The translations under genes were made by a program, and so were the position numbers. 44,992 nucleotides of DNA from a phage. Position 1 is the stretch's first letter; each line of letters starts with the position of its first letter. Location of the stretch: sequence record NC_110914.1; one strand, 5' to 3'. This document shows, piece by piece, positions 3,793 to 42,089 of the stretch. A model generated the notes under the pieces. The model had not been told where the DNA came from, ran no database searches, and saw only the letters and a list, made by a program, of their open reading frames with translations.

Positions 3793-3820
3793 AGTTGTTT
3801 TCCTGTATGAAAAACCATTA

Positions 3821-3858
3821 CTGTTATTGTGTACAGTATAAACTGGTTTTATATACAG
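3821..3858. promoter_or_regulatory. LexA (SOS) boxes in the recN promoter region
   Basis: ctgttattgtgtacag (CTGT-N8-ACAG) and adjacent ctggttttatatacag upstream of the recN start; recN is a classical SOS gene with multiple LexA boxes. Confidence 0.7.
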
Positions 3859-3877
3859 TAAAGAGGCTGGCGTAAAA

Positions 3878-4756: not shown

Positions 4757-4804
4757 TTTTCCGAGGTCCTTGTTGCGAAGATTGATGACAATGTGAGTGC
4801 TTCC

Positions 4805-4833
4805 CTTGAAACCCTGAAACTGATCCCCATAAT
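4805..4833 (+). promoter_or_regulatory. sigma-32 heat-shock promoter of grpE
   Basis: cccTTGAAAccctgaaactgatCCCCATAAT matches the sigma-32 consensus (CTTGAAA ... CCCCATnT) about 45 nt upstream of the grpE ATG. Confidence 0.75.
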
Positions 4834-4845
4834 AAGCGAAGTTAG

Positions 4846-5472
<627 letters not shown>

Positions 5473-5494
5473 TTTCTGTTTTCGTAATAATTCA

Positions 5495-5526
5495 CGGCCC
5501 TGCATGCGAATGCAGGGCCGTTTTCG
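5495..5526. terminator. Rho-independent terminator between grpE and yfjD (convergent)
   Basis: cggccctgcatgcgaatgcagggccg hairpin followed by ttttcg. Confidence 0.65.
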
Positions 5527-6789
5527 TTACTCCGCCACACTCTCGCGCAGCGGTTTCACAGGAAAAACTTTTACCTGCTTAATCATATTGTCCTGTACGT
5601 CGAGAATATCAATATCGTACTCGCCAATACGCACGCGGGTGCCTGCGACAGGGATCTCTTCCAGTGCCTCAAGAATGACGCCATTAACCGTGCGGGCATC
5701 ATCTTCCGGTAGATGCCAGTTAAAGGCTTTGTTGATTTCCCGCACGTTGGCAGTGCCATCAATAATCACCGAACCGTCGTTTTGCGGAGTGACTTCTTCG
5801 GCAAGTGTTGGCGACATCGACGTGGTGAAATCACCAACTATCTCTTCCAGAATATCTTCAACCGTCACCAGCCCCTGAATGTCTCCATATTCGTTGACGA
5901 CCAGGCCGACTTTCTTTTTGTTGCGCTGAAACTTCACCAACTGCGTGCTGAGGGGCGTACCTTCCGGGACAAAATAGATCTCGTCCGCGGCGCGCAGCAT
6001 GGTTTCTTTGGTGAACTCTTTTTTCTCCGACATCAACCGCCAGGCTTCACGTACTCGCAGCATACTGATGGCGTCGTCCAGCGAATCACGGTAGAGCACG
6101 ATGCGCCCGTGAGGTGAGTGGGATAGTTGGCGCAGAATCGATTTCCAGTCATCGTTGATATCAATACCGATAATTTCACTGCGCGGCACCATGATGTCAT
6201 CAACGGTCATCTTTTCCAGATCGAGCACAGACAGCAGCATATCCTGATTGCGACGGGAAATTTGTGAGCGCGACTCATGCACGATAGTGCGCAACTCTTC
6301 TTTGCTCAAAGAGCCGCTAACCACGATATCGGTTTTGATACCCATCATGCGCATCAGCATACGGGTGATAGCATTCAGCAACCAGACCAGCGGCATCATC
6401 AAAATTTGCAGCGGAGCCAGCAGAAAACTACTCGGATAAGCGACTTTTTCCGGGTACAGCGCGGCAATGGTTTTCGGCAATACCTCAGCAAAAACCAGTA
6501 CGACAAAAGTCAGCACACCAGTCGCAATTGCCACGCCCGCATCGCCGTACAAACGCATCCCAACAATAGTGCCGAGCGCGGAGGCAAGAATATTGACCAG
6601 GTTATTGCCGATTAATACCAGGCTTATCAGGCGGTCTGGCTTACGCAGCAATTTTTCGACGCGCTTGGCCGAGCGATTACCCTGTTTCGCCATATGTCGC
6701 AGACGATAGCGGTTGAGGGTCATCATTCCGGTTTCGGACCCGGAAAAATAGGCTGAAATGACCACCATGATGATCAGAATAATGATCAA
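5527..6789 (-). CDS. yfjD: CorC/HlyC-family inner membrane transporter (DUF21-CBS-CorC domains) YfjD
   Basis: 420-aa ORF with N-terminal TM region and CBS/CorC-like C-terminus; ORF-track start is a TTG. The annotated start may lie about 8 codons upstream (LEHISTTT...), start uncertain. Confidence 0.85.
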   Translation of the reverse strand: MIIILIIMVVISAYFSGSETGMMTLNRYRLRHMAKQGNRSAKRVEKLLRKPDRLISLVLIGNNLVNILASALGTIVGMRLYGDAGVAIATGVLTFVVLVFAEVLPKTIAALYPEKVAYPSSFLLAPLQILMMPLVWLLNAITRMLMRMMGIKTDIVVSGSLSKEELRTIVHESRSQISRRNQDMLLSVLDLEKMTVDDIMVPRSEIIGIDINDDWKSILRQLSHSPHGRIVLYRDSLDDAISMLRVREAWRLMSEKKEFTKETMLRAADEIYFVPEGTPLSTQLVKFQRNKKKVGLVVNEYGDIQGLVTVEDILEEIVGDFTTSMSPTLAEEVTPQNDGSVIIDGTANVREINKAFNWHLPEDDARTVNGVILEALEEIPVAGTRVRIGEYDIDILDVQDNMIKQVKVFPVKPLRESVAE

Positions 6790-6833
6790 CGTAGTAGTAG
6801 AAATGTGTTCCAGGGGAAACTCCTTTTCTGGGT

Positions 6834-7625
6834 TTAGCTGATTAACTGCTGGACAATTCGGCTGCCGAAGTAGGCCAGTGTCAGAATGACTGCACCCGCA
6901 ACGTTAAACCAGACGACGCGACGTCCACGCCATCCTTCATGATAATGTCCCCACAGCAGCACAATATAGACAAACCACGCCACGATAGAGAGCACGGCCT
7001 TGTCGATATTTTCCATGCTAAATAAGTTGTGCATGTAGAACAGGCCAGTGCAAAGCGTGAGCGTTAGCAGCACCACGCCAATCTGCGTGATGTGGAACAT
7101 TTTACGCTCGATACTCATTAATGGCGGCATTTCCTGGTTAAACGCCAGCTTCTTGTTCTTCAGTTGGTAATCAATCCACGCCAGTTGCAGCGCGTACAGG
7201 GCGGCGATAATCAGCGTGGCATAGGAAAAGAGCGATAAGCCAATGTGCACCAGCATCCCAGGCGTTGCTTCCAGATGAGTGATGTATTCATTGGGCATGA
7301 AGGTCGCCAGCGCCAGGTTGATAAGCGCAAAGGCATAGACAATGGGTAGCAGCAACCAGCCACGATTGCGAGAAGCCACAATGGTCATTACCGTACAGAT
7401 CATCAAACTGACCAATGAACCAACGTTCAGCAGGCTGAGGTTTTGTCCGCTATCACCGTCGGGCAGGATGCGGGCTTCCAGAGCGATTGCGTGGCAGACC
7501 AGCGCAATGACCGCAGAAATAATAGCCATGCGCCGCCAGCCGCCGTTTTTTTGCAGCAGACCGGGAACAATCAGCGCAAGACTGACGGAGTAGGCGACAA
7601 GCGCGAGCAGAGCAAAAACGGGCAT
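6834..7625 (-). CDS. ypjD: Inner membrane protein YpjD (cytochrome c assembly/CcsA-like family)
   Basis: Polytopic membrane ORF; start trimmed to the internal MPVFALLALVAYS... Met (263 aa) rather than the 288-aa longest ORF. Confidence 0.8.
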   Translation of the reverse strand: MPVFALLALVAYSVSLALIVPGLLQKNGGWRRMAIISAVIALVCHAIALEARILPDGDSGQNLSLLNVGSLVSLMICTVMTIVASRNRGWLLLPIVYAFALINLALATFMPNEYITHLEATPGMLVHIGLSLFSYATLIIAALYALQLAWIDYQLKNKKLAFNQEMPPLMSIERKMFHITQIGVVLLTLTLCTGLFYMHNLFSMENIDKAVLSIVAWFVYIVLLWGHYHEGWRGRRVVWFNVAGAVILTLAYFGSRIVQQLIS

Positions 7626-7791
7626 AGTGATGTCGACAGTTTGAGCAATAAGAAAGAGAAGCAGTATAGCGTCAGGTGAACGCTGCTCCAACCGTTGCAT
7701 AACAACAAAGACGCCTTCATGTTATACTGCGGCAAAATACTGATGATGTGTCGCGATTGCGGCCAACCGTTTCCACCCCAGGCGAGAGACA

Positions 7792-9153
7792 ATGTTTGAT
7801 AATTTAACCGATCGTTTGTCGCGCACGCTGCGCAATATCAGTGGCCGTGGACGCCTCACTGAAGACAACGTAAAAGATACGCTGCGCGAAGTGCGCATGG
7901 CGCTGCTGGAGGCGGACGTCGCTCTGCCGGTAGTGCGTGAGTTTATCAATCGCGTAAAAGAGAAAGCGGTTGGTCATGAAGTTAATAAGAGCCTGACGCC
8001 GGGGCAGGAGTTCGTCAAAATCGTCCGTAACGAACTGGTTGCGGCGATGGGCGAAGAGAACCAGACCCTGAACCTGGCTGCGCAACCGCCTGCGGTCGTG
8101 CTGATGGCAGGCCTGCAAGGTGCCGGTAAAACAACCAGCGTTGGTAAACTCGGTAAGTTCCTGCGCGAGAAGCACAAGAAGAAAGTGCTGGTGGTTTCTG
8201 CCGACGTCTATCGCCCGGCGGCAATCAAACAGCTTGAGACGCTGGCTGAGCAGGTGGGCGTTGATTTCTTCCCTTCTGATGTTGGTCAGAAGCCGGTTGA
8301 TATTGTTAACGCGGCGTTGAAAGAAGCCAAACTGAAATTCTACGACGTGCTGCTGGTGGATACCGCTGGTCGTCTGCACGTTGACGAAGCGATGATGGAC
8401 GAGATCAAACAAGTCCATGCGTCGATTAACCCGGTTGAAACCCTGTTTGTGGTTGACGCCATGACCGGTCAGGATGCGGCCAATACGGCAAAAGCATTTA
8501 ATGAAGCGTTACCGCTTACCGGCGTAGTGTTGACCAAAGTGGACGGCGATGCCCGCGGCGGTGCGGCGCTCTCTATTCGTCACATCACTGGCAAACCGAT
8601 CAAGTTCCTCGGTGTTGGCGAGAAAACTGAGGCGCTGGAGCCGTTCCATCCGGACCGCATCGCGTCGCGTATTCTCGGCATGGGCGACGTACTGTCGCTG
8701 ATCGAAGATATCGAAAGCAAAGTTGACCGCGCGCAGGCAGAGAAATTAGCCAGCAAGCTGAAAAAAGGCGACGGCTTCGATCTCAACGACTTCCTTGAGC
8801 AGCTGCGGCAGATGAAAAATATGGGCGGCATGGCCAGCTTGATGGGCAAACTGCCGGGCATGGGGCAGATCCCGGATAACGTCAAGTCGCAGATGGACGA
8901 TAAAGTGCTGGTGCGTATGGAAGCCATCATCAACTCAATGACGATGAAAGAGCGCGCTAAGCCAGAAATCATCAAAGGTTCACGTAAGCGTCGTATCGCC
9001 GCCGGTTGCGGGATGCAGGTACAGGACGTTAACCGCCTTCTGAAGCAGTTCGACGACATGCAGCGCATGATGAAGAAAATGAAGAAGGGCGGAATGGCGA
9101 AGATGATGAGAAGCATGAAAGGGATGATGCCGCCGGGATTTCCTGGTCGCTAA
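7792..9153 (+). CDS. ffh: Signal recognition particle protein Ffh
   Basis: 453-aa ORF; GTPase motifs (GLQGAGKTT, DTAGR) and Met-rich C-terminal M domain. Confidence 0.95.
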   Translation: MFDNLTDRLSRTLRNISGRGRLTEDNVKDTLREVRMALLEADVALPVVREFINRVKEKAVGHEVNKSLTPGQEFVKIVRNELVAAMGEENQTLNLAAQPPAVVLMAGLQGAGKTTSVGKLGKFLREKHKKKVLVVSADVYRPAAIKQLETLAEQVGVDFFPSDVGQKPVDIVNAALKEAKLKFYDVLLVDTAGRLHVDEAMMDEIKQVHASINPVETLFVVDAMTGQDAANTAKAFNEALPLTGVVLTKVDGDARGGAALSIRHITGKPIKFLGVGEKTEALEPFHPDRIASRILGMGDVLSLIEDIESKVDRAQAEKLASKLKKGDGFDLNDFLEQLRQMKNMGGMASLMGKLPGMGQIPDNVKSQMDDKVLVRMEAIINSMTMKERAKPEIIKGSRKRRIAAGCGMQVQDVNRLLKQFDDMQRMMKKMKKGGMAKMMRSMKGMMPPGFPGR

Positions 9154-18237: not shown

Positions 18238-18552
18238 TTATTGTCCTGGCTGGTCTGTTGAGGGGCTATTTGTCAGTGTTGGGCGATGTCTGACACATTG
18301 AGACATCAGCAACGGATGCGGGAAATTGTTTGTATAGCGTTGAGATACCCGAGGCGATCCAGTTTCCAGACCACAAGCGTATCGCCCTCTGACAAGGTTC
18401 TGAGTAACCTCTTTAGCCCCGGCCAGTCTGATTGATGTTTTGCCGCTGATTTTATCTTCGAAAATCAGCTCACATCCTGCGCACTCCAGTTCATTTCGCT
18501 GTAATGCGGTGTTCTGGTCATTTGTTGATACACGTACATAACCGATAAACAT
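18238..18552 (-). pseudogene. Hin/Gin/Pin-family serine DNA invertase remnant (frameshifted and 3'-truncated)
   Basis: Minus-strand translation gives MFIGYVRVSTNDQNTALQRNELECAGCELIFEDKISGK (catalytic Ser motif); the conserved GDTLVVWKLDRLG block is only in another frame, and the rest of the ~190-aa protein is absent before FI. Confidence 0.75.
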
Positions 18553-18618
18553 GAGAAATAACCCGGTAAAAAGTCGGAAACATGCCAGCTGAACGGAATA
18601 TCTGCATTTTCTAAAAGG

Positions 18619-18644
18619 TTGGTTTGGGAGAAGCGGCAAAACGG
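18619..18644. repeat. Left inverted repeat / crossover site of the invertible tail-fibre segment
   Basis: ttggtttgggagaagcGgcAaaacgg is the reverse complement of 20138..20163 with 2 mismatches. Confidence 0.7.
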
Positions 18645-18986
18645 AATGTAGGTAACGGGCAAAACCAAATTCCGGATATGGCGGCGTTTGCCAGTTCACT
18701 TTCATCAACGGGTTTTCAAAAACTCCCTTCAGGTCTGATTATTCAGTGGGGTATTGTCAGTGGAGCATCAAACTATACGGTGACTTACCCGGTAACATTC
18801 CCAAATCGTTCACTTGCGCTGTTGGCTGTGCCACATACAACGTCGGTGGCTGGTATATCTGCAATGGGCATAGCGAACTGTTCTGATATCAGCAAATCAC
18901 AGTTCTATATAATTGTTGGCGGTATATCTCAGGGAGAAATTGTCAAATATGAAAGGTCCTGTTTTTGGGTAGCAATCGGTGTATAG
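18624..18986 (+). CDS. Alternative (silent) tail-fibre C-terminal cassette Sv'
   Basis: Translation GEAAKRNVGNGQNQIPDMAAFASSLSSTGFQKLPSGLIIQWG... parallels the active H C-terminus; frame opens inside the inverted repeat, no own start. Confidence 0.65.
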   Translation: MGEAAKRNVGNGQNQIPDMAAFASSLSSTGFQKLPSGLIIQWGIVSGASNYTVTYPVTFPNRSLALLAVPHTTSVAGISAMGIANCSDISKSQFYIIVGGISQGEIVKYERSCFWVAIGV

Positions 18987-18994
18987 GTATATCT

Positions 18995-19390
18995 ATGATT
19001 TATTTCTCAAAATCGACTAATGGTTTTTTCTTTGATGGTATAAACAGCGACATGCCTGCTGACATTGTTGAGATAAGTACAGACTTATACAATGAATTAA
19101 TTGCCGGACAGCAGGAAGGGGGGAAATTAATCACGTCAGATGAAAATGGTTTACCGGTACTGAAATCTCCGGCGATTGATTATGTCGCACGTGCGGAAAA
19201 TCAGCGAATGCAGTTACTTGCTCATGCCGATAATGTCACAGCTGACTGGCGAGTGGAATTAATGCTTGGTGATATCAGCAGTACAGATAAAGAAAAACTA
19301 TCCGCCTGGATGAACTACAAAAAAGAAGTAAAAGCCGTCGACACTTCGACGGCTCCTGAGATTAGCTGGCCTGAGTTACCGGAGGCGTAG
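18995..19390 (+). CDS. Alternative tail-fibre assembly protein (Tfa')
   Basis: C-terminus ...WMNYKKEVKAVDTSTAPEISWPELPEA resembles the Tfa/gpG family; start trimmed to MIYFSKS...; 3' ends overlap the other tfa. Confidence 0.7.
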   Translation: MIYFSKSTNGFFFDGINSDMPADIVEISTDLYNELIAGQQEGGKLITSDENGLPVLKSPAIDYVARAENQRMQLLAHADNVTADWRVELMLGDISSTDKEKLSAWMNYKKEVKAVDTSTAPEISWPELPEA

Positions 19391-19805
19391 GCCATTCAAT
19401 ATCTGGCGCACTGGAAGTATTGACCTGTTCCAGTGCGTCCAGGTAATCCAGCCACAAATTATATTGCGCCAGTTCGTCACCGTTCAGACGACCAATAGCT
19501 GCTTTACCGGGCCATTGCTTACTGTTCATGTAGTCGTTTGCCTGGTTGATTTTTTTCTGCTTTTCGGCGTTCGCAGCTTCCACTTCTTCATCGTGACTTA
19601 ACGGTGGTAAATCCACCCATACAGGCTGCCCATTTTCATCAGCGCCGCGGGTTTGCCCTTCTGGTGGCATTCCTGAATATGTGAGAAAAACGTCATCAGA
19701 AACACCTACTAAGTCATCTGGCCAGGTGTTGGCTGCTATGTACAGCGACTTCATTTCTTCAGGGTAAAAACCTAGAGTTGATGGAGAAAAATAATAAAGA
19801 GTCAT
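19362..19805 (-). CDS. G: Tail-fibre assembly protein (gpG-like Tfa), active orientation
   Basis: 147-aa ORF immediately downstream of H; C-terminus ...LEQVNTSSAPDIEWPTPP typical of Tfa. Confidence 0.8.
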   Translation of the reverse strand: MTLYYFSPSTLGFYPEEMKSLYIAANTWPDDLVGVSDDVFLTYSGMPPEGQTRGADENGQPVWVDLPPLSHDEEVEAANAEKQKKINQANDYMNSKQWPGKAAIGRLNGDELAQYNLWLDYLDALEQVNTSSAPDIEWPTPPVTQAS

Positions 19806-23398: not shown

Positions 23399-24235
23399 AT
23401 GAAAAGAACTTCATCTTTTAGGCGTACAATAAGCAATATGAAATATATTATAGGTATCTTTTTTTTATACTCCGGGCTTATAGTAGGGTTGTCTGTTTAT
23501 AATGATAACTACAACTCAAAATTCATGGAGAATTTTCTTGTTAATGCAAATTCTTCAATTTTAGACTTTCTTGTTTTGGGTGTGATTCTTTACTATTTTG
23601 AAAATAAAAGGCAAAATAAAGATGCTATTCACGAACTAATTGAAGATCTTGAAAATCTGGCAAAGCATTCTTCTGCAGAACTGAATATTATGAAGATAAA
23701 AATCATACGTCAGTTAAATGCTAAAGGAATATATAACATTCAAGTTCCAAGGATTGAACTTGATAAAATGTCCACTATCAAATATTTACATTTTAAAGAC
23801 GCTGACTTAACCGGCTTGAATATGAGCGAATCATACATTAGAGATTGTTCTTTCGATAATTGCACAATTCAAGCTCTAAATATTACAGGCAATAGAGTTA
23901 AGAGTGTTAAATTCAAAAACTGCAAGCTAAGAAATATTAAGGCATTTAATACATGTTTTCAAAATGTCACTTTCGAAAACTGCAGTTTTGAAGGGGGGTA
24001 TTTTACAGATAGCGAAATGAAAAGCTGCATATTAAAAGGATGTGATTTTAAATCCGTTACTTATGAAGGGGCTAACATGCGGAATGCAAATCTATTAAAT
24101 TCAATTAACATTAGCGTTAAAGAACTTGTTAAAGCAAAAAACATAGATTATTTAATTTGTGATGAGCAAATTAAAAATGAAATAAGAAAGGAAAACCCAG
24201 CAATAAAAATATCGAGAGGAATAATACGAGGTTAG
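23399..24235 (+). CDS. Membrane-anchored pentapeptide-repeat protein (cargo gene between V and S)
   Basis: AT-rich ORF opposite to flanking late genes. N-terminal hydrophobic segments (YIIGIFFLYSGLIVGLSVY; LDFLVLGVILYYF), then pentapeptide-like repeats (CSFDNCTIQALNITGNRVKSVKFKNCKLRNIKAFNTCFQNVTFENCSFEGGYF...). ORF track starts at GTG 23354; an ATG at about 23399 (MKRTSSFRR...) is more plausible. Confidence 0.6.
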   Translation: MKRTSSFRRTISNMKYIIGIFFLYSGLIVGLSVYNDNYNSKFMENFLVNANSSILDFLVLGVILYYFENKRQNKDAIHELIEDLENLAKHSSAELNIMKIKIIRQLNAKGIYNIQVPRIELDKMSTIKYLHFKDADLTGLNMSESYIRDCSFDNCTIQALNITGNRVKSVKFKNCKLRNIKAFNTCFQNVTFENCSFEGGYFTDSEMKSCILKGCDFKSVTYEGANMRNANLLNSINISVKELVKAKNIDYLICDEQIKNEIRKENPAIKISRGIIRG

Positions 24236-32037: not shown

Positions 32038-33084
32038 ATGGGTAAACAAAAATCCCGTAAAGCCAACGCACAAAAGGCCAGCAAACCACAACAACTGACC
32101 GCCAGCGCACCGCCAAAAACGACAGCGTTCACCTTCGGCGAGCCGGTGCCGGTGCTCGATAAGCGCGACATTCTGGATTACGTCGAGTGCATCAGTAACG
32201 GCAAATGGTACGAGCCGCCGGTCAGCTTCTCAGGGCTGGCAAAGAGCCTGCGCTCTGCCGTGCATCACAGCTCGCCAATTTATGTTAAGCGTAACGTGCT
32301 CGCGAGCACCTACATTCCGCACCCGTTGTTATCCCGTCAGGATTTCAGCCGCTTTGCGCTCGATTATCTGGTGTTCGGTAACGCCTTTCTTGAGCAGCGC
32401 CACAGCGTCACCGGCCAGTTAATCAAACTGCTGGCCTCGCCAGCCAAATACACCCGACGCGGAGTCGACGATTCGATTTTCTGGTTTGTGGAAAACTTCA
32501 CCCAGCCGCACGAGTTCGCGCCTGATACCGTGTTTCACCTGCTGGAGCCCGACATTAATCAGGAGATTTACGGCCTGCCCGAATATCTCAGCGCGCTAAA
32601 TTCCGCCTGGCTGAATGAATCCGCGACGCTGTTCCGCCGCAAGTATTATCAGAACGGCGCGCACGCGGGTTACATCATGTATGTGACTGACCCGGCGCAG
32701 AGCGCGACCGACGTCGAATCGCTGCGCGAGGCGATGCGCAACTCAAAAGGGCTCGGCAACTTTAAGAACCTGTTTTTCTACGCTCCCGGCGGAAAACCGG
32801 ACGGCATCAAAATCGTGCCACTGAGCGAGGTCGCCACAAAGGATGACTTTTTCAACATCAAGAAGGCCAGTGCCGCCGATCTGATGGACGCGCACCGCGT
32901 ACCGTTCCAGCTCATGGGCGGCAAGCCCGAGAATATCGGTTCACTCGGTGATGTTGAGAAGGTGGCAAAGGTATTTGTGCGCAACGAGCTGTCGCCGCTA
33001 CAGGACCGGTTCAGGGAGGTAAATGACTGGCTCGGCATGGAGGTCATCAGATTCAAAGAGTACACCCTCGACAACCCAGAATAA
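32038..33084 (+). CDS. Q: Portal protein gpQ
   Basis: 348-aa ORF directly after P; P2 gpQ-like size and position. Confidence 0.9.
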   Translation: MGKQKSRKANAQKASKPQQLTASAPPKTTAFTFGEPVPVLDKRDILDYVECISNGKWYEPPVSFSGLAKSLRSAVHHSSPIYVKRNVLASTYIPHPLLSRQDFSRFALDYLVFGNAFLEQRHSVTGQLIKLLASPAKYTRRGVDDSIFWFVENFTQPHEFAPDTVFHLLEPDINQEIYGLPEYLSALNSAWLNESATLFRRKYYQNGAHAGYIMYVTDPAQSATDVESLREAMRNSKGLGNFKNLFFYAPGGKPDGIKIVPLSEVATKDDFFNIKKASAADLMDAHRVPFQLMGGKPENIGSLGDVEKVAKVFVRNELSPLQDRFREVNDWLGMEVIRFKEYTLDNPE

Positions 33085-33161
33085 CTTAGGCCGCCACAAT
33101 CTCTGCGCTCATTATTGAAGATGCAATCTGCGAAAGCTATAGTGCATCGAATATCAAAACA

Positions 33162-34166
33162 ATGGGCGCGGAGATTAATATTTTGGAAACTGATTTTAAA
33201 ATAACCCTCGAAGGTTTCGCTACTGAGCAAGAAGCAAATAATATCGGTAATTTCACACTAGAAGCTATCCGAGCTTTAACAAAAAATCTCAATCTTGATA
33301 TCTCCAAATTAAAATGCGTGATTGTTTCCTATAACTTCAGTGAAGCTCTTCAAAAGGTAACATCCTCTTACCAACACAAATCCCCTAGTTCATTTACCAA
33401 TAGCAAACAGGGCGCAGCCGTCGGGCAGTTAGTAACAAAAATTGGCAATGATGGGCTATGTGAAGAATATACCCTTGTGCTATCGATTGATTTTTTTGTT
33501 GAGCTTTTCAATGATGGTAGCTTCTTAAAACTGAAAGAAGAAGGATACCTCGCAGTCATCCATCGCATTCACCATGAATTAGTGCACGTACATGAAAAAA
33601 ACTTACTAACATGCTTAGCCCAAAACTTTACAGTCAACGAGTATGGTAGCGCGCTTCTTATCTCAGCCACGCGTGCATGGTCTGAATATCTCGCTAATTA
33701 CATGTCTTCGGGGTCTGCCCCTCAAGAAACTATCGATTTATTTTTAGAGAATCTTGACACTGTTGTAAATGAAGTATCTGACGAGATTGAAAAACTCATC
33801 TGGGGTTATAAGTACGGTAATATTTCTCTGAATGACATGTATCTCGAAGTAAAAAAACGTATCAGGCTAATCATCAACTCTTATGCTTATGCGATGGGTT
33901 ATGTCCATTCTCTAAACATCAATATTAAAGAATACGATCCAAAGCTATCCCTTACACTATCCAACTCAAAGATAAGATATCAATTATCAGAATTAGGCAT
34001 TGCTTTTCAGAATCTTTATGGGAAGTTTAATGACCAGCACATTACAGGTTTTGGTGATTTTCGGGAGATAACAATAATCATTGATGAAATATTCAAGCAG
34101 TTTGGGCTTGTTTTAGAGTGTCCCGATTGGTCTGGCGACGGTGAACTCTACATACATGTAAATTAG
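33162..34166 (+). CDS. Hypothetical HExxH-motif protein (cargo gene between portal and cos)
   Basis: 334-aa AT-rich ORF with HRIHHELVHVHE (HExxH) and a Glu about 20 residues downstream (NEYG), suggestive of a zinc metallopeptidase fold. No recognised homologue from memory. Confidence 0.55.
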   Translation: MGAEINILETDFKITLEGFATEQEANNIGNFTLEAIRALTKNLNLDISKLKCVIVSYNFSEALQKVTSSYQHKSPSSFTNSKQGAAVGQLVTKIGNDGLCEEYTLVLSIDFFVELFNDGSFLKLKEEGYLAVIHRIHHELVHVHEKNLLTCLAQNFTVNEYGSALLISATRAWSEYLANYMSSGSAPQETIDLFLENLDTVVNEVSDEIEKLIWGYKYGNISLNDMYLEVKKRIRLIINSYAYAMGYVHSLNINIKEYDPKLSLTLSNSKIRYQLSELGIAFQNLYGKFNDQHITGFGDFREITIIIDEIFKQFGLVLECPDWSGDGELYIHVN

Positions 34167-34386
34167 TTTAATCATAGTAGAAACATAATTAGCAGTTTGA
34201 ATCCTGCCACTCCTGTAAAGCCGCTGCTCCTGGTGGCTTTTCCATGCACACCACCATCACGCATCAGATGCGTCTCACGCGCACGAACACACCCGACCAC
34301 CAACGAACCAGCAGCGACCACGACAGCGCCATCACGACGCGCTCAGAGGATAATTTTTATTATTACGCATCACTGCTGGCGCGCAA

Positions 34387-34405
34387 TGCTTTCCCCGCCA
34401 CGCCT
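34387..34405. other. Candidate cos site (19-nt cohesive end)
   Basis: Reverse complement GGCGTGGCGGGGAAAGCAT is 17/19 identical to the remembered P2 cohesive end GGCGAGGCGGGGAAAGCAC, in a GC-rich non-coding gap pointing toward Q as in P2. Confidence 0.6.
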
Positions 34406-34641
34406 GCCCGCTTTATGGGGCGGTTTTAATGCAGTTGCATGACCACTCTGGATCCCCGCCAGCTCTTGCGGCGCACGTACAAAACGGGTAACCCCGGCGC
34501 ATGCAGAACCATGCACCTGTTGCATGCACAGCTTATTTATTGATAAATCACCTTAAATTTACAAAAATTACGGACATTGATTCTTTCCAAACATGATAGC
34601 CTCTCGATAATTATCGAGCCTATTTTTGAACGGAGAAAGAT

Positions 34642-35583
34642 ATGCAAGGTGAAGTTGACGAACAGCAACCCAATGAGATTATGTCGGAGTTTGGATACTA
34701 TCCAGTAGAAGTTAACATTGAGACTGAACAATTTTCTTTGCTTACTTTACCTGGTCTCAATGAGAAAGTGGAGCGTGTTAATAATGATAAAAACGTTGTG
34801 AAAGGTTGGATATACCCTGGAAACCAAGATGTATATAACCTTAATGGTGGCATATCCACAATGCCTTATAGTCACCGAGTATTCAGTATGCCCAAAACGC
34901 ACACACTAAAATTAAAAAATACATCCTCGTTAGAAACTCTCAACTTTATTGTGTGGTGCCTTTCTTTTTTCAAGGGAATAAGATTGACAACCACTGACGC
35001 TGGTTTTTTAGATGCAACCACTATCAAGCCCACTAAGTTAACCGACTTTATTCTCGTTGGATGCTCTGAAAAAGAAGTCATAGAACTGGCTCTTAATTAT
35101 ATAAATGGCAAACATAAGGATGCGCACTCCCCCAAAAGAATTGCGGCAGTGGTGCATGCACTATTCTTATCTCAAAACCCACAATACCTTTCTTTTGAAA
35201 AATTCCAGTACCTTTACATGGCACTTGATGGGTGCTTTGCTTTGTCGTGGGCTGAGCATGACAAGGCTCCTGATAAAAAACCGCCAAATCATTACAAGCG
35301 ATTAAAGTGGATGTGCAAAATTTATGGGTTATCAATCCCCACATGGGTGTCAGGTAAAAAAAACATTTCTGGCATCCGCAATGATAATTTTCATGAGGCT
35401 ATTTTTTTTGGTCAACCGCTTGGTTTCTCAAGTGTTAACAACAGTCAATATGGTAACGATATATTGCTGCAAATGCAGGCACTGGTATGTCGCCTATTAG
35501 CGGCAATACTGTCGGTTAATGATTGCAGTTATCTCAAATCTTCGGTCAACTCACGAGATTACCATTCATTAAAAATAAATTAA
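34642..35583 (+). CDS. Hypothetical protein with R-x4-H motif (cargo gene at the P2 old/tin position)
   Basis: 313-aa AT-rich ORF with its own AT-rich upstream region and a GGAG-type RBS; contains ...GIRNDNFHEAIFF... (R-x4-H, possibly HEPN-like). No recognised homologue from memory. Confidence 0.55.
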   Translation: MQGEVDEQQPNEIMSEFGYYPVEVNIETEQFSLLTLPGLNEKVERVNNDKNVVKGWIYPGNQDVYNLNGGISTMPYSHRVFSMPKTHTLKLKNTSSLETLNFIVWCLSFFKGIRLTTTDAGFLDATTIKPTKLTDFILVGCSEKEVIELALNYINGKHKDAHSPKRIAAVVHALFLSQNPQYLSFEKFQYLYMALDGCFALSWAEHDKAPDKKPPNHYKRLKWMCKIYGLSIPTWVSGKKNISGIRNDNFHEAIFFGQPLGFSSVNNSQYGNDILLQMQALVCRLLAAILSVNDCSYLKSSVNSRDYHSLKIN

Positions 35584-35657
35584 TGCTAACGCCTCGCGGT
35601 GCTCGTTGTTCAACCCCCGCCAGTACTGAAAGCGAGTTTCAGAACCGGCGGCGTTTG

Positions 35658-35867
35658 CTATCGTCGACGTGGTGGTGGTGCGTATTGTTTCGACCTGCTG
35701 ATGCTATCCAGCTTGCCGTAATTATCCCTGACTATTTCGGCACACCCGACCAGCTCTGCGGGTGTCAAATTCTCATTGACCATTATCTGCTGCAAACGAT
35801 GAACGATGGCCATCAGTTTGATGCTTTTAGTTTTGTGTTGCGGTATTTCACCTGGTAGTCGATGCAT
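35658..35867 (-). CDS. Small hypothetical protein (weak call)
   Basis: 69-aa ORF between two ~50-bp direct repeats; protein-like composition but no supporting motif. Confidence 0.25.
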   Translation of the reverse strand: MHRLPGEIPQHKTKSIKLMAIVHRLQQIMVNENLTPAELVGCAEIVRDNYGKLDSISRSKQYAPPPRRR

Positions 35868-36066
35868 ATTATCACCCTCAATGAATTTTAATCAGTGCCG
35901 TCAAAACGCCACTATAAAACCATCTCAGGTCATGCCTCATTAATCATGGGCGTGTCATCAATAGCACATTGAGAAATTTTGAAAGGCAGGACTTAAGCCT
36001 CGTGGGCTCGTTACTCAACCCCGCCGACGCAAAAAGCTAGTTTTTGCGCCAGCACGGTTATTATGT

Positions 36067-36297
36067 TTAACGCCAGCTATCGTCTTCCCAAATCTCTTGT
36101 AATATGCTGCCTAATGTTTCTCTGTCCGCCTCTTTATCGAATCCGATAGCCTCTACACCAGTCATTGACCCTTTCTTAACGTTAACTTTTGTTGCAGGAA
36201 AAACGCATTGTACTCGATGTGTTATTTCATTTTGAAAAGCATCAATGATCTGTTGCCCTAATTTTTGCTCTTTATCCAACGTGATATTGATTCTCAT
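36067..36297 (-). CDS. DinI-like protein (C-terminal-domain equivalent of 186 Tum)
   Basis: 76-aa ORF MRINITLDKEQ...RVQCVFPATKVNVKKGS...ETLGSILQEIWEDDSWR resembling remembered DinI; LexA box upstream of the two-ORF unit. Confidence 0.75.
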   Translation of the reverse strand: MRINITLDKEQKLGQQIIDAFQNEITHRVQCVFPATKVNVKKGSMTGVEAIGFDKEADRETLGSILQEIWEDDSWR

Positions 36298-36300
36298 AAT

Positions 36301-36483
36301 CTAATCAGCCTTATAAAAATTATCATCTTCGGTTTCGTTATTTTCGCTGTTTGCTAGGTCTGCAATGAGAGTGAGCGCGAGCTTTAAGTCTGATGGCTTG
36401 CAGTTTGCAATCAGAGATACCTCGGCAATAAATTGCACACAAGCCCACTTTTGCTGCGTTCGGCTGAAATGTTCGCCAACCAT
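36301..36483 (-). CDS. Small protein upstream of and in frame with the DinI-like ORF (possible N-terminal part of a Tum-like antirepressor)
   Basis: 60-aa ORF separated from the DinI-like ORF only by an in-frame TAG; GGGAGG RBS before its ATG. Confidence 0.5.
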   Translation of the reverse strand: MVGEHFSRTQQKWACVQFIAEVSLIANCKPSDLKLALTLIADLANSENNETEDDNFYKAD

Positions 36484-36504
36484 GAAGTCCCTCCCATAGG
36501 GTTA

Positions 36505-36520
36505 CTGTATATTTATACAG
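36505..36520. promoter_or_regulatory. LexA box overlapping the promoter of the Tum-like module
   Basis: Perfect CTGTATATTTATACAG (CTGT-N8-ACAG) about 20 nt upstream of the 36483 start, overlapping a TTGCCA ... TATAAAT promoter-like element on the minus strand. Confidence 0.75.
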
Positions 36521-36596
36521 TAGCACGTATTGGCAAAAGATGGGAAGAAAAAAAACGAATAGAGCGATTGCTGTATGTGCATGATATGGATATGAA

Positions 36597-38819
36597 TTAC
36601 TCATGTATTGGTTTTGATGCTTCAGCCATCGCCGCAACACGATTAAGGATTTTCCGAGCTTTAGCTTCATGCGATGGTGCTGCGGAAAATATTTCTCCTT
36701 TGGCCGTTCCGCGTAGCCATTTACCATCAAAACAACTTTTACCACCGGCCATCAGGTGCAGGGCTTCGCCCCGGCTGATATTAATGCCGGTTGTCAGATG
36801 TATCTCATCGATAGTTTTAGCTATAGCTGCGTTTTGCTCATCCGTTCCGTGGATGAATTTTCGCCGTGCTGCTGGCTTTTGCTTCCTGAGTCGGTTGGTC
36901 AATTCTCGTCTTTCACGCCGACTCAGTGGTTTTGTTAAATCCAGTATCGGTGGATCGCTTTCGCTTCCCGTACAGTTATTGACAGAACTCCGAGGGACGG
37001 CTTTGCCGTCCTGAAGGTCAACGGCCAAATCAACAGCACGCTTCGGAACAATCTTCCACTGAGTGAGCCGGGTTAAAATCGGGCTTCCTGCACCTATGGA
37101 GGAATCGTAGACCCCCTTAATACATACCGTTTCCTCACCGTACTGATTAAGCTCGGTACGCGGTTCATACAGTGTGCGCACCTGTAAATCATCGCGACGG
37201 ACAAACGGCCCACCCTGAGCATTAACATAACCAGCCCAGTCACCAGCGTCGGCGGCATCATGGACGGCGGCAAACTCAACGCTCAGACCGTGCGCGGTTT
37301 CGGTATCAGCGAGGCGACGCAACTCACGGTAAACCGTCACCGGCGCACCACCAATAAACTGAAACTGACGGATGTGCCAGCGCGCAGCCCATGCTGAAAC
37401 GGCGGGGGCTGTCTCTTTCAGCAGCTCACCGCTTTCATCATCGGTTTCACCATCGAGAGCATAACCGTCGATATTTTTTGAAATGTATTTAGCAACATAG
37501 CCGGTTGCGCTGCCTTTCTCCGGGTCAATGGACTCCGCGTGGAAACGTGCTTTTTTGGATTTATCGCTTTTCAGTTCGTGGCGGTCTTCTTTCCATGCGT
37601 ATTTACGGACGATGGAGCGAACATATTCAACATCTTCCGGCAGCATGAACATCAGCATGTGCCAGTGTGGAGTGCCGTCGTGATGGGGCTCGGCGACACG
37701 AATACCGAAAATACGGACATCTTCCCGATGTAGTTTGGCACGGATACGCGCCCAGATACCGGTTAGATAGTTTTGCGTGTCAGCCGGGCTGGCACCGCTC
37801 CATTTGCTGTTACGGTAACCGGCTTTAGTCGTGGCGTGATATTTTGACGGCGCGGTTAGAGTGTAAAACTCACCGACATAACCGAGCTCATTACAGATGT
37901 TTTCAAACCCACGAATGCGGGTCATGAGCTCACAGCGGCGAATCGCAGGGTTAGCAACTGAGCCATCATATTTTTCAATTAGGCTGATACGGTTGCCGTC
38001 TTCGTCTTCGAGATCCAGACCTTTGAGAAATTCACGAGTGCGGCGCTTTTGTTCACGCCAGTCAGTCACGCAGTTTTTACTCGCGTAAGTGTTTTTTTTC
38101 TTACTGACGTTGCCGACTGCAATTTGCAGGTGTTCGCGCCACGTAGCTGCTACACGGCGCAAACGACCGCGCCACCACCCATCGTTAAACATTTTGGCGA
38201 TAGCCGGTGCGATTTCATCCGCACCGACATATTTTTTTTCAACCCGCTCCCAATGTGGTGGGATAACGTTGAATTGGAGGGAAATAAAGCCAGCACGAAT
38301 ATACCAGGTGTACAGCGTTTTAAGCTCGCCGAATCCGTGGTCATTAATGTTGGCAAGTTCACCACGAATGAAATTAGCAATATCAGCGGCCAACAGGTCA
38401 ACATCAGCGCGCGACATGTCCGGGAGACGGTTATATCGGGCGACCATATTAACCATGCGTGACGACAGATATTGCATTTGCTGAGTATCAAAATGACTTC
38501 CAAAAACAGCGGTTGATACCTTGCTGTTGATACCAGCGCATTCGTATTTTTTTGCGACCAGTTCAAGACGCGGCAATGCCTTTTTGCAGAAGCTGATTAA
38601 AAATGCATTGGCTCGTTGACTACCCTGATTTTGCTCCAGCACCGCAGCAGTGCGATAAACATCTAACCGCACGCAGTCGGGCTGGAGAGAAAGCACCTTT
38701 TTTGCATGCAGCAAAGCCGCGAACATACGGTCGCGGCGATGCTGTTGCTCATAAGTAAGGTATGGGCTGGAGATTGCCGACCGTGGGACGTTCCACGGAT
38801 AAGCGAATTGAACAGCCAA
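36597..38819 (-). CDS. A: Replication initiation protein gpA (rolling-circle nickase)
   Basis: 740-aa ORF (P2 gpA about 761 aa) at the expected position downstream of the early genes. Confidence 0.85.
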   Translation of the reverse strand: MAVQFAYPWNVPRSAISSPYLTYEQQHRRDRMFAALLHAKKVLSLQPDCVRLDVYRTAAVLEQNQGSQRANAFLISFCKKALPRLELVAKKYECAGINSKVSTAVFGSHFDTQQMQYLSSRMVNMVARYNRLPDMSRADVDLLAADIANFIRGELANINDHGFGELKTLYTWYIRAGFISLQFNVIPPHWERVEKKYVGADEIAPAIAKMFNDGWWRGRLRRVAATWREHLQIAVGNVSKKKNTYASKNCVTDWREQKRRTREFLKGLDLEDEDGNRISLIEKYDGSVANPAIRRCELMTRIRGFENICNELGYVGEFYTLTAPSKYHATTKAGYRNSKWSGASPADTQNYLTGIWARIRAKLHREDVRIFGIRVAEPHHDGTPHWHMLMFMLPEDVEYVRSIVRKYAWKEDRHELKSDKSKKARFHAESIDPEKGSATGYVAKYISKNIDGYALDGETDDESGELLKETAPAVSAWAARWHIRQFQFIGGAPVTVYRELRRLADTETAHGLSVEFAAVHDAADAGDWAGYVNAQGGPFVRRDDLQVRTLYEPRTELNQYGEETVCIKGVYDSSIGAGSPILTRLTQWKIVPKRAVDLAVDLQDGKAVPRSSVNNCTGSESDPPILDLTKPLSRRERRELTNRLRKQKPAARRKFIHGTDEQNAAIAKTIDEIHLTTGINISRGEALHLMAGGKSCFDGKWLRGTAKGEIFSAAPSHEAKARKILNRVAAMAEASKPIHE

Positions 38820-41750: not shown

Positions 41751-42089
41751 ATGAAACGTAAACTCTTTTTAGCTATGCTTCTTACCTTTTCTTTTGGCTC
41801 CTTAGCCGCTGAAAAAACACAGGATTTAGATGGCGCTAAGTTTGGTGAGGATTGGCCGTTAACTTTTGAAAAAGCTACGGTGTCTTGCGTTAACGGTAAG
41901 TATGCCTTTGTATACGACAAAGCAACTGATGACCGATACCCATTAAATGGTTTTGCTATTGATGGAGTAAAGTCTGGAAAGCTTGAGGGGAGCAATATTG
42001 ATGCTGTTTGGAAAGACAGTCCAGAGTATGCAGGTGTAAAAATTCCTTTGGATCCTGTAATGGATGCCGCAACAGCACTTTGCGAATAA
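41751..42089 (+). CDS. Small secreted protein of unknown function (moron between cI and int)
   Basis: 112-aa product with signal peptide (MKRKLFLAMLLTFSFGSLAAEKTQ); start trimmed from ORF 41679..42089; co-directional with cI and int. Confidence 0.6.
   Translation: MKRKLFLAMLLTFSFGSLAAEKTQDLDGAKFGEDWPLTFEKATVSCVNGKYAFVYDKATDDRYPLNGFAIDGVKSGKLEGSNIDAVWKDSPEYAGVKIPLDPVMDAATALCE

What the first reader, a model, noticed from the sequence alone, without database searches (positions are those of the whole stretch)
33085..36596. AT-rich cargo island spanning cos between the portal gene and replication gene A
This 3.5-kb block has visibly lower GC than the flanking phage backbone, except for the GC-rich cos core. 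It holds two unrelated orphan genes plus the Tum module, consistent with horizontally acquired cargo at a recognised P2-family variable region.
Basis: partly seen in the sequence, partly recalled or inferred. Interest (0 to 1): 0.5.

Follow-up and report, generated by a model that had tools for sequence, protein, structure and literature searches.

The report
Known P2-family cos hotspot, uncharacterised cargo
The AT-rich block is real and is the well-known variable "cargo" slot next to the packaging site of P2/186-type prophages. Here it holds two independently acquired, uncharacterised single genes, a predicted HEPN RNase and a predicted zinc protease, that are most likely anti-phage defence genes.

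Summary
Region 33085-36596 has 41.4% GC, the lowest of any 3.5-kb stretch in the window (mean 51.4%). It contains a GC-rich block of 58% around a cos site identical to that of phages 186 and PSP3.

This is the portal(Q)-cos-replication(A) hotspot described by Rousset et al. 2022. It has four parts:
- A 1.1-kb insert carrying OrfA, between the portal stop codon and the portal terminator.
- The conserved cos block.
- A 1.05-kb insert carrying OrfB.
- A gp37-like/TumB/TumA SOS operon with a perfect LexA box. This part is backbone of the PSP3 lineage, not swappable cargo.

OrfA and OrfB occur independently of each other, and sister prophages with the same backbone lack both.

Neither protein matches Pfam, NCBIfam or PADLOC. 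Structure prediction points to a gluzincin-type metallopeptidase for OrfA (invariant HExxH plus Glu). For OrfB it points to a C-terminal HEPN domain (invariant RNxxxH).

Both are already listed without annotation in Rousset's Table S5B, as systems #76 and #11. I found no record of either being tested.

I propose that both are lysogen-expressed abortive-infection effectors, which is inferred. The locus is ordinary; the cargo is modestly new.

The parts
32038..33084 (+). Portal gene (P2 Q / 186 W homologue). This is the left conserved anchor of the hotspot.
   Evidence: Pfam Phage_portal, phrog_68. The last 185 bp are 94% identical to 186 and PSP3.
33085..34217 (+). Left-arm AT-rich insert (GC 0.378). 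It lies between the portal stop codon and the portal-operon terminator, and is absent from 186, PSP3 and E. coli 81EVA.
   Evidence: Homology to 186, PSP3 and 81EVA breaks at 33084/5 and resumes at 34218-34231. GC.
33162..34166 (+). OrfA, 334 aa from the ATG at 33162. RefSeq and most homologues start at the TTG at 33183 (327 aa), which has a GGAG 9 nt upstream. Predicted cytoplasmic gluzincin-type zinc metallopeptidase of an unmodelled family. It is Rousset Table S5B system #76.
33115..33143 (+). Candidate sigma-70 promoter for OrfA (TTGAAG-17-TATAGT).
   Evidence: Consensus scan. This is weak evidence: site counts in the region are not above shuffled controls.
34218..34533 (.). Conserved GC-rich cos block (GC 0.582). 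It includes the portal-operon terminator equivalent at about 34216-34245.
   Evidence: 82-89% identical to both genome ends of 186 and PSP3 and to the empty-site prophage 81EVA. Terminator-like hairpin at 34223-34237 followed by T-rich sequence. 186 annotates its tW terminator at the matching position.
34386..34404 (-). The 19-nt cohesive-end (cos) sequence GGCGTGGCGGGGAAAGCAT.
   Evidence: Exact match to the annotated cos of 186 (U32222) and PSP3 (AY135486).
34534..35584 (+). Right-arm AT-rich insert (GC 0.377). PSP3 has gp38 here, 186 has orf97, and 81EVA has nothing.
   Evidence: Homology breakpoints at 34533/34534 and 35584/35585 against 186, PSP3, 81EVA, EC12 and MB06232.
34642..35583 (+). 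OrfB, 313 aa, with GGAG 8 nt upstream of the ATG. An N-terminal alpha/beta domain of unknown fold is followed by a C-terminal HEPN domain carrying RNxxxH. It is the homologue of ORF313 of P2-EC67 and belongs to the family of Rousset Table S5B system #11.
35585..35657 (-). Conserved, roughly 73-nt structured element, copy 1. It forms the right boundary of the OrfB insert.
   Evidence: 94.5% identical to the segment just after orf97 in 186. A paralogous copy lies at 35997-36070. PSP3 also has two copies. The minus-strand fold is -30.6 kcal/mol, z -2.9.
35658..35867 (-). gp37-like small gene (69 aa), part of the lineage backbone.
   Evidence: 90% identical to PSP3 gp37. phrog_11386. Present in the empty-site prophage 81EVA.
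35997..36070 (-). Conserved structured element, copy 2. It corresponds to the 186 t95a partial terminator just after TumB.
   Evidence: Alignment. Hairpin arms at 36017-36035 and 36041-36059. Fold -32.1 kcal/mol, z -4.3. Terminator-like site. Position of t95a in 186.
36067..36297 (-). TumB, a DinI-like protein (76 aa).
   Evidence: Pfam DinI, E 1.7e-17. 70% identical to residues 71-146 of 186 Tum. PSP3 tumB sits at the same position.
36301..36483 (-). TumA (60 aa), the presumed antirepressor half of the split Tum.
   Evidence: 98% identical to PSP3 TumA, which is annotated 'UV induction of prophage'. phrog_1993. There is no BLASTP similarity to the N-terminal half of 186 Tum.
36503..36522 (.). 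LexA box TACTGTATATTTATACAGTA in the SOS promoter of the Tum operon.
   Evidence: It is the only match in the window, with 0 expected in 100 shuffles. 186 annotates its LexA site and p95 promoter at the equivalent place.
36597..38819 (-). Replication gene A, the right conserved anchor of the hotspot. RefSeq places the start at 38726.
   Evidence: Pfam Phage_GPA, E 2.4e-130. RefSeq annotation.

Best explanation
The window is an E. coli chromosome carrying a PSP3/186-type (Eganvirus) prophage. Region 33085-36596 is that phage family's accessory-gene hotspot, which runs from the portal gene across cos to replication gene A.

Shown:
- The block is a mosaic. Two AT-rich single-gene cassettes sit on either side of a conserved GC-rich cos block. 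OrfA lies between the portal stop codon and the portal-operon terminator. OrfB lies between the cos block and a conserved roughly 73-nt structured element.
- Next comes the lineage-conserved SOS operon: LexA box, TumA, TumB/DinI, terminator-like element, gp37-like.
- The two cassettes come and go independently in prophages with the same backbone.
- Both are under purifying selection.
- Both also occur outside P2-like phages, in variable islets and defence islands.

Inferred:
- Both cassettes are expressed from their own promoters in the lysogen and protect it against other phages by abortive infection or exclusion.
- OrfB is a latent HEPN ribonuclease. Its N-terminal domain senses an infection cue, and its RNxxxH site then cleaves RNA (tRNA, rRNA or mRNA) and stops translation.
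- OrfA is a cytoplasmic HExxH zinc endopeptidase with a helical C-terminal lid. It is kept inactive until a phage product licenses cleavage of an essential host or phage protein. This would work like the Lit protease of prophage e14, although OrfA is not a Lit family member.
- The Tum operon is not cargo. It is the SOS-inducible antirepressor switch that makes this lineage UV-inducible.
For: Locus identity:
- Portal, A and cos annotations.
- Published hotspot (PMC9122126; PMC13586616; bioRxiv 10.1101/2024.10.15.618418).
- The exact protein arrangement is listed in Rousset Table S5A. OrfA is system #76 with 51 occurrences, and the OrfB family is system #11 with 218 occurrences.

Mosaic structure and independent assortment:
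- Breakpoints against 186, PSP3, 81EVA, EC12 and MB06232.
- Salmonella prophages carry OrfA without OrfB, or OrfB without OrfA.
- OrfB-like genes sit in the same cos-adjacent slot in P2-type backbones with different neighbours.
- A Yersinia P2-like phage has an OrfA homologue (59% identity) in the same slot.

Composition.

Functional genes: dN/dS 0.15-0.34 and confident folds.

Defence association:
- The P. aeruginosa OrfB homologue lies about 3 kb from a Gabija-like AAA/OLD-TOPRIM plus UvrD pair.
- The Psychromonas OrfA homologue lies in a type I restriction-modification island.
- Other copies are in a Tn7-like cargo region and in small variable islets.

Tum operon.
Against: - There is no experimental evidence for defence by either gene, and neither appears in the tested sets of Rousset et al..
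- Several homologue contexts are uninformative. The Aeromonas OrfB sits among housekeeping genes and the Shewanella OrfA sits near groESL.
- Rousset et al. note that part of the hotspot cargo is not defensive, for example plasmid partition genes and cdt toxin.
- The promoter predictions are no better than chance. Expression in the lysogen is therefore unproven.
- OrfA lies upstream of the portal-operon terminator, so it could be a late gene.
- The geometry of the metal site in the OrfA model could not be inspected.
Confidence: 0.7

Rival explanations
1. The cargo genes serve the phage's own lytic cycle or counter-defence rather than defending the lysogen. OrfA would be co-transcribed with the late terminase-portal operon and act as a protease on host or defence proteins. 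OrfB would be a host-shutoff or anti-defence RNase.
For: OrfA is on the same strand as the terminase (P) and portal (Q) genes. It is inserted upstream of the portal-operon terminator equivalent at about 34223-34245, so late transcripts should read into it. The Yersinia homologue has the same placement after portal and ogr. Own-promoter predictions are weak.
Against: Both genes are missing from prophages with an identical portal protein, or identical TumA and TumB proteins, that appear intact. Both families also occur as lone genes outside any phage. Anti-defence genes were found in only 28 of 1511 P2-like elements.
Confidence: 0.12
2. The genes are lysogenic-conversion factors unrelated to phage defence, such as virulence or fitness factors for extra-intestinal E. 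coli. Alternatively they are selfish toxin or addiction modules that stabilise the prophage.
For: Most of the 17 exact carriers come from human clinical samples, including blood and urine, or from poultry. The hotspot is known to carry non-defence cargo such as cdt toxin and partition systems. HEPN domains are common toxins of toxin-antitoxin systems.
Against: From reading the OrfA sequence, I see no signal peptide or membrane segment. No adjacent antitoxin-like gene travels with OrfB, and its neighbours differ in every context. The families are spread over environmental Gammaproteobacteria including Psychromonas, Shewanella, Colwellia and Acinetobacter.
Confidence: 0.1
3. The low GC is a local compositional property of the cos-proximal region, for example DNA bending or packaging signals, or a need for H-NS binding. 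Under this view it is not a mark of foreign acquisition, and the ORFs are incidental or decaying.
For: The conserved Tum operon is also below backbone GC, at 0.385-0.44. So low GC alone does not separate cargo from backbone here. One carrier, TW10598, has a frameshifted OrfA.
Against: The sequence that is actually conserved around cos is GC-rich (0.582). Empty-site prophages keep only that block. The GC steps coincide with the homology breakpoints. Both ORFs show purifying selection, invariant catalytic motifs and confident folds.
Confidence: 0.03

Closest known systems
P2-family gpA-cos-gpQ defence hotspot: the old/tin ('TO') region of P2 and orf97 of 186 (Rousset et al. 2022, Cell Host Microbe, PMC9122126; Moura de Sousa et al. 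2026, PMC13586616)
   Same: Same position between portal and replication gene A, next to cos. It is AT-rich. The content swaps between near-identical prophages. The exact arrangement and both proteins are already in Rousset's Tables S5A and S5B.
   Different: No recognised defence system is present according to PADLOC v2. This example shows that the hotspot is really two slots, one on each side of cos, that fill independently. In this lineage the A-proximal part is a fixed SOS operon.
Single-gene HEPN abortive-infection nucleases: ApeA, AbiV, the HEPN domain of AbiA, HepS of Gifsy-1, RnlA/LsoA
   Different: No sequence-model match to HEPN_Apea, ApeA_NTD1, Abi_2, AbiV or any PADLOC or Pfam model, for 91 family members. 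The N-terminal alpha/beta domain has no significant structural match. RNase activity, target and trigger are unknown.
Lit, the cell-death zinc metallopeptidase of prophage e14, which cleaves EF-Tu when triggered by the T4 Gol peptide (function stated from my own knowledge)
   Same: Both are roughly 300-aa prophage-encoded cytoplasmic HExxH proteins without partner genes. The local motif is similar: RIHHELVHV in OrfA and ILHHEISHV in Lit.
SOS operon of coliphage 186 (p95, tum, orf97) and tumA/tumB of Salmonella phage PSP3
   Same: LexA box upstream. TumA is 98% and gp37 is 90% identical to PSP3. TumB is 70% identical to the C-terminal half of 186 Tum. The terminator-like elements and gene order are the same.
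   Different: Tum is split into two ORFs as in PSP3, not fused as in 186. TumA has no detectable similarity to the N-terminal half of 186 Tum. OrfB takes the place of orf97 in 186 and gp38 in PSP3.

Membership tests
P2-family Q-cos-A accessory/defence hotspot | Located between the portal gene (gpQ) and replication gene A, next to cos | tested here: met
   Portal 32038-33084, cos 34386-34404, A from 36597. Definition taken from PMC9122126.
P2-family Q-cos-A accessory/defence hotspot | Gene content varies between otherwise closely related prophages | tested here: met
   81EVA is empty, EC12 has DUF2188, and MB06232 and TW10598 have OrfA with different right arms. Genome counts are 26, 93 and 17 of 5426.
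P2-family Q-cos-A accessory/defence hotspot | Carries a recognisable anti-phage system | tested here: not met
   No PADLOC v2 hit for any of the five proteins, apart from a chance-level hit for the DinI-like protein. Newer DefenseFinder models could not be run.
HEPN superfamily (OrfB) | All-alpha HEPN helical-bundle fold | tested here: met
HEPN superfamily (OrfB) | Conserved Rx4-6H catalytic motif | tested here: met
   R246-N247-D-N-F-H251 lies in helix 242-255. It is invariant in 56 homologues. H251 is invariant and R246/N247 are at least 90% conserved in 35 distant homologues.
HEPN superfamily (OrfB) | Metal-independent RNase activity, usually as a dimer | not testable with these tools
   Needs biochemistry.
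ApeA (HEPN_Apea) defence family | Match to the Pfam HEPN_Apea / ApeA_NTD1 or PADLOC ApeA models | tested here: not met
   No hit at E<=0.1-1 for 56 plus 35 family members. One UniRef name ('Apea-like HEPN domain-containing protein') on homologue P0115 is the only link.
Gluzincin (zincin) metallopeptidases (OrfA) | HExxH on an active-site helix | tested here: met
   H138, E139 and H142 are invariant and lie inside helix 126-148.
Gluzincin (zincin) metallopeptidases (OrfA) | Third zinc ligand is a Glu on the next helix | tested here: inconclusive
   E175 is invariant within W173-S174-E175-Y176 on helix 160-185, 33 residues after H142.
Gluzincin (zincin) metallopeptidases (OrfA) | Thermolysin-like catalytic-domain fold | tested here: met
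Lit peptidase family | Sequence-profile membership | tested here: not met
   The PADLOC Lit model finds Lit as a positive control but not OrfA or its family. hhalign probability is 5%.
186/PSP3 SOS (Tum) operon | LexA operator at the promoter | tested here: met
   TACTGTATATTTATACAGTA at 36503-36522, with 0 expected by chance. 186 has a LexA site at the equivalent position.
186/PSP3 SOS (Tum) operon | DinI-like C-terminal part and Tum N-terminal part | tested here: met
   TumB is 70% identical to 186 Tum residues 71-146. TumA is 98% identical to PSP3 TumA. TumA has no detectable similarity to the N-terminal half of 186 Tum.
186/PSP3 SOS (Tum) operon | Antirepressor activity against CI | not testable with these tools
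   Needs an induction assay.

The most novel reading that the evidence does not exclude
OrfA and OrfB each found a new anti-phage family that current defence-annotation tools miss.

OrfB would be a widespread family (657 clusters at 50% identity) of single-gene HEPN abortive-infection nucleases with a new sensor domain. It is the 11th most common cargo of the E. coli P2 hotspot.

OrfA would be a Gammaproteobacteria-restricted cytoplasmic gluzincin that kills or arrests infected cells by proteolysis. That would make it a mechanistic analogue of Lit with an unrelated sequence.

A bolder variant is that the two cos-flanking slots act as a unit in the circular or prophage form, with read-through from OrfA across cos into OrfB. 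Independent assortment makes this unlikely.
Probability: 0.35. Interest if true: 0.55.

Novelty: new member of a known kind. Interest (0 to 1): 0.3.

Why it matters
The locus itself adds nothing new. It is one of the best-studied phage hotspots.

The practical value is the annotation. Two recurrent cargo genes are carried as 'hypothetical' in every resource checked here (RefSeq, Pfam, NCBIfam, PHROGs, PADLOC v2 and the Rousset tables). They now have testable catalytic predictions:
- OrfB: a HEPN RNase, with R246 and H251 as the key residues.
- OrfA: a zinc peptidase, with H138, E139, H142 and E175 as the key residues.

OrfB's family is common: 218 of 18,150 E. coli hotspot loci, and hundreds of clusters elsewhere. 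Confirming it as a defence gene would close a visible gap in defence-system annotation.

The dissection also shows that the hotspot is two independent slots bounded by short conserved anchors: the portal stop and terminator, the cos block, and a repeated 73-nt hairpin element. This is useful for automated delimitation of cargo.

Tried and rejected
- Sequence-family searches gave nothing for OrfA or OrfB. This covers Pfam on single sequences and on 56, 38 and 35 family members, NCBIfam, and PADLOC.
- PDB profile searches returned only chance hits: ribonucleotide reductase R2, and a flagellar protein.
- Rfam found no RNA family in 32900-36800 at E<=1.
- The AFDB50 fold library was unavailable.
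- The original description of P2-EC67 ORF313 (Odegrip et al. 2006, J Bacteriol) is not held.
- Accession-number searches of the literature found nothing outside Rousset's supplement. The supplements of the 2026 NAR paper are not held.
- I suspected that Rousset's tested 'Putative HEPN' from E. coli S88 (pFR103) was OrfB. It is a different, longer protein.
- I considered OrfA to be a Lit homologue. This was rejected.
- I considered OrfA and OrfB to be a two-gene system. This was rejected because each occurs without the other.
- I considered gp37-like to be an OrfB partner or antitoxin. This was rejected because it is conserved in PSP3 and 81EVA, which lack OrfB.
- Promoter scanning gave candidates, but no more than in shuffled sequence.
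- The RefSeq CDS at 34370-34525, which overlaps cos, was judged probably spurious.

Full report
**1. What the window is**

The RefSeq annotation of an identical sequence (E. coli strain 222, NZ_CP020516) shows host genes from smpB to rplS. A P2-family prophage follows, from ogr at about 11.5 kb to the integrase at about 43.2 kb, and then yfiB.

The prophage has 186/PSP3-type features: CI, Apl/Cro, CII, Fil and a Tum module. Its closest sequenced phages at this locus are Salmonella phage PSP3 and relatives, of the genus Eganvirus.

**2. The observation**

GC is 0.414. This is the lowest of any 3512-bp window in the 45 kb (mean 0.514, sd 0.036). Within the interval the profile is not uniform:

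| Segment | GC |
|---|---|
| 33085-34217 | 0.378 |
| 34218-34533 | 0.582 |
| 34534-35584 | 0.377 |
| 35585-36596 | 0.440 |

Third-position GC of the two large ORFs is 0.36 and 0.37, against 0.60 ± 0.10 for 33 backbone genes.

The GC-rich core holds the 19-nt cohesive-end sequence GGCGTGGCGGGGAAAGCAT at 34386-34404, reverse-complemented. It is identical to the annotated cos of 186 and PSP3.

**3. Anatomy from comparison with relatives**

I aligned the region to both ends of 186 and PSP3, and to E. coli prophages that share the same portal, TumA or TumB proteins. This gives sharp homology breakpoints that coincide with the GC steps.

- Homology stops at the portal stop codon (33084/5) and resumes at 34218-34231. 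The resumption point is where 186 places the portal-operon terminator tW. OrfA is therefore a 1.1-kb insertion between the portal gene and its terminator.
- The cos block 34218-34533 is conserved at 82-89%.
- Homology breaks again at 34533/4 and resumes at 35585. This second insert carries OrfB. PSP3 has gp38 in that place, and 186 has orf97 (annotated 'expression from plasmid blocks 186 infection').
- From 35585 onward everything is backbone. The gp37-like gene is 90% identical to PSP3 gp37. TumB is DinI-like and 70% identical to the C-terminal half of 186 Tum. TumA is 98% identical to PSP3 TumA. A perfect LexA box lies at 36503-36522, and then gene A.

A conserved, roughly 73-nt hairpin-forming element occurs twice, at 35585-35657 and 35997-36070. 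It is also present in 186 and, in two copies, in PSP3.
- Copy 2 corresponds to the 186 partial terminator t95a.
- Copy 1 is the exact right boundary of the OrfB insert.

**4. Is the cargo variable?**

Yes, and the two sides vary independently.

- Strain 81EVA has the backbone with neither gene. EC12 has a DUF2188 gene on the left arm and nothing on the right.
- MB06232 has OrfA with a different small gene on the right. TW10598 has a frameshifted OrfA.
- Among 5426 complete E. coli genomes, 408 carry related flanks. Of these, 26 carry OrfA, 93 carry an OrfB-like gene (17 at 99% identity or more), and 17 carry both.
- In Salmonella, a 90%-identical OrfA is very common in a 186-type prophage that lacks OrfB. 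A 96%-identical OrfB sits in a PSP3-type prophage that lacks OrfA.
- OrfB-like genes at 74-91% protein identity occupy the same cos-adjacent slot, in the same orientation, in P2-type backbones with different neighbours. One partner set is ORF226 plus DUF2158, as in P2-EC67. Another is a hypothetical protein plus an ImmA/IrrE peptidase, in ST131.
- A 59%-identical OrfA sits after the portal and ogr genes in a Yersinia P2-like prophage.

**5. Relation to the literature**

This interval is the hotspot that Rousset et al. (2022) analysed. They found 1,650 arrangements in 18,150 E. coli loci, with validated defence systems among them. It is confirmed as the main P2 defence hotspot in a 2026 study and in an independent hotspot survey.

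The exact protein string of this window is in their Table S5A, labelled 'hypothetical + hypothetical + hypothetical + DinI + hypothetical': WP_001622301 + WP_001622299 + WP_001622297 + WP_001622296 + WP_000232651.

In their curated Table S5B:
- The identical OrfA sequence is system #76 (51 occurrences, no Pfam).
- An OrfB homologue is system #11 (218 occurrences, no Pfam).

Neither is in their lists of cloned systems. The 'Putative HEPN' they cloned from strain S88 is a different protein. I found no paper that mentions either protein.

**6. What the two cargo proteins are**

Both have PHROG families of unknown function. Neither has any Pfam, NCBIfam, PADLOC or PDB-sequence relative, even when whole family alignments are scanned. 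Both are under purifying selection, with dN/dS of 0.15-0.34.

*OrfB* (313 aa)
- The family has 398 clusters by word-indexed search and 657 representative clusters by exhaustive profile search. Members are almost all about 300 aa with the same two-domain layout, and they span Enterobacterales, Aeromonas, Pseudomonas, Acinetobacter and Stenotrophomonas.
- The AlphaFold2 model (pLDDT 82.7) has an N-terminal alpha/beta domain and a C-terminal helical bundle.
- The canonical HEPN motif R246-N-x-x-x-H251 lies in a helix. It is invariant in close homologues and essentially invariant in distant ones.
- Other invariant residues (H87, G112, E186, G261, R284) have no assigned role.
- The N-terminal domain has no significant structural match.

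*OrfA* (334 or 327 aa)
- The family is small, about 106 clusters, and is confined to Gammaproteobacteria.
- The model is confident (pLDDT 90.8).
- H138-E139-x-x-H142 is invariant on helix 126-148. The invariant W173-S174-E175-Y176 sits on the next helix. E175 is the likely third metal ligand; this is inferred, because I could not inspect the geometry.
- The C-terminal half is an all-helical domain.
- From reading the sequence, I see no signal peptide.
- OrfA is not a Lit homologue. The PADLOC Lit model detects Lit but not OrfA, and hhalign gives a probability of 5%.

**7. Genomic company outside P2-like phages**

OrfB homologues:
- In a P. aeruginosa island, about 3 kb from a Gabija-like pair (AAA/OLD-TOPRIM plus UvrD), along with ParB and DUF932 genes.
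- In a Tn7-like cargo region in Stenotrophomonas.
- Next to a Peptidase_M78 gene and a 'Cytotoxic'-domain gene in Acinetobacter.
- As a lone gene between housekeeping genes in Aeromonas.

OrfA homologues:
- In a type I restriction-modification island in Psychromonas.
- Beside a prophage end and a YafO toxin gene in Kosakonia.
- Near a NERD-domain gene in Shewanella.

This pattern fits mobile single-gene modules that frequent defence islands. The sample is small, and some contexts are neutral.

**8. Most likely mechanism**

The mosaic structure and independent turnover are shown. What follows is inferred.

In the lysogen, each cassette is transcribed from its own promoter. Candidates lie at 33115-33143 and at 34540-34611, but the evidence is weak.

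- OrfB is held inactive until its N-terminal domain detects an infection cue. The HEPN site then cleaves RNA and aborts the infection.
- OrfA is a cytoplasmic zinc endopeptidase gated by its helical domain. It cleaves an essential target when triggered, in the manner of Lit.
- The Tum operon is the LexA-controlled antirepressor switch of the prophage, not cargo.

My estimates: about 0.9 that the locus description is right, about 0.55 that OrfB is a defence nuclease, and about 0.4 that OrfA is a defence protease.

**9. Rivals**

- A role in the phage's own lytic cycle or in counter-defence is the most serious rival for OrfA, because OrfA lies upstream of the portal-operon terminator.
- A non-defence conversion or addiction role is possible.
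- A purely compositional explanation is excluded by the empty-site prophages.

**10. Verdict**

There are two corrections: it is two cassettes, not one island, and the Tum module is backbone.

The locus is already well known, and the specific genes are catalogued but uncharacterised. The new content is the fold-level and motif-level functional prediction for two recurrent 'hypothetical' cargo families. Interest is low to moderate.

Noticed in passing
window 23399-24235 (+): This is the most AT-rich gene in the window (GC 0.296, GC3 0.265). It encodes a pentapeptide-repeat protein inserted between baseplate gene V and tail-completion gene S, on the opposite strand to its neighbours. That makes it a second cargo slot, in the position I recall as 'orf30' of P2. 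It has a weak, sub-threshold NCBIfam hit to the Hailong effector HalA (44.8 bits against a cut-off of 250), probably driven by the repeats. There is no convincing PADLOC hit.
   Followed up: partly
window 35585-35657 and 35997-36070 (also L004 2843-2914 in 186; L003 599-661 and 1014-1086 in PSP3): A conserved, roughly 73-nt hairpin-forming element is repeated after successive genes of the SOS operon. The two copies have different stem sequences, and both still form a strong hairpin. Copy 2 is the 186 t95a-type partial terminator. Copy 1 is 94.5% identical to 186 and marks the exact right boundary of the OrfB insert. It may serve as a recombination anchor for cassette exchange. There is no Rfam match.
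   Followed up: partly
window 41751-42089 (+): A small DUF2511 gene (GC 0.41, GC3 0.31) lies between the CI repressor and the integrase. This is a further minor accessory slot of P2-like phages reported in the literature.
   Followed up: no
window 18306-19805: A frameshifted recombinase (invertase) pseudogene sits next to two oppositely oriented tail-fibre-assembly genes and a gp53-like fragment, with GC of 0.43-0.47. This looks like a now-locked invertible tail-fibre (host-range) segment.
   Followed up: no
window 34370-34525 (-): RefSeq annotates a 51-aa 'hypothetical protein' (WP_164966458.1) that overlaps the cos cohesive-end sequence inside the conserved GC-rich block. 186 and PSP3 annotate no gene there. 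It is probably a spurious call.
   Followed up: partly
L023 (E. coli ST131) 3501-5676; L030 (Acinetobacter) 5232-7954: In two unrelated contexts an OrfB-family gene is divergently adjacent to an ImmA/IrrE (Peptidase_M78) gene plus a small unknown gene. This may be coincidence, or it may be a recurrent partnership.
   Followed up: no
window 33162 vs 33183: The start codon of OrfA is ambiguous. An ATG at 33162 gives 334 aa, as in Rousset's table. A TTG at 33183 gives 327 aa, as in RefSeq WP_225568245 and most homologues. The TTG is preceded by GGAG at 9 nt, and residues 1-7 are modelled with pLDDT below 50.
   Followed up: partly
L018 (E. coli TW10598) 563-1566: OrfA is split into two ORFs by a frameshift in 1 of the 26 E. 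coli carriers. This is a rare pseudogenised copy of hotspot cargo.
   Followed up: no
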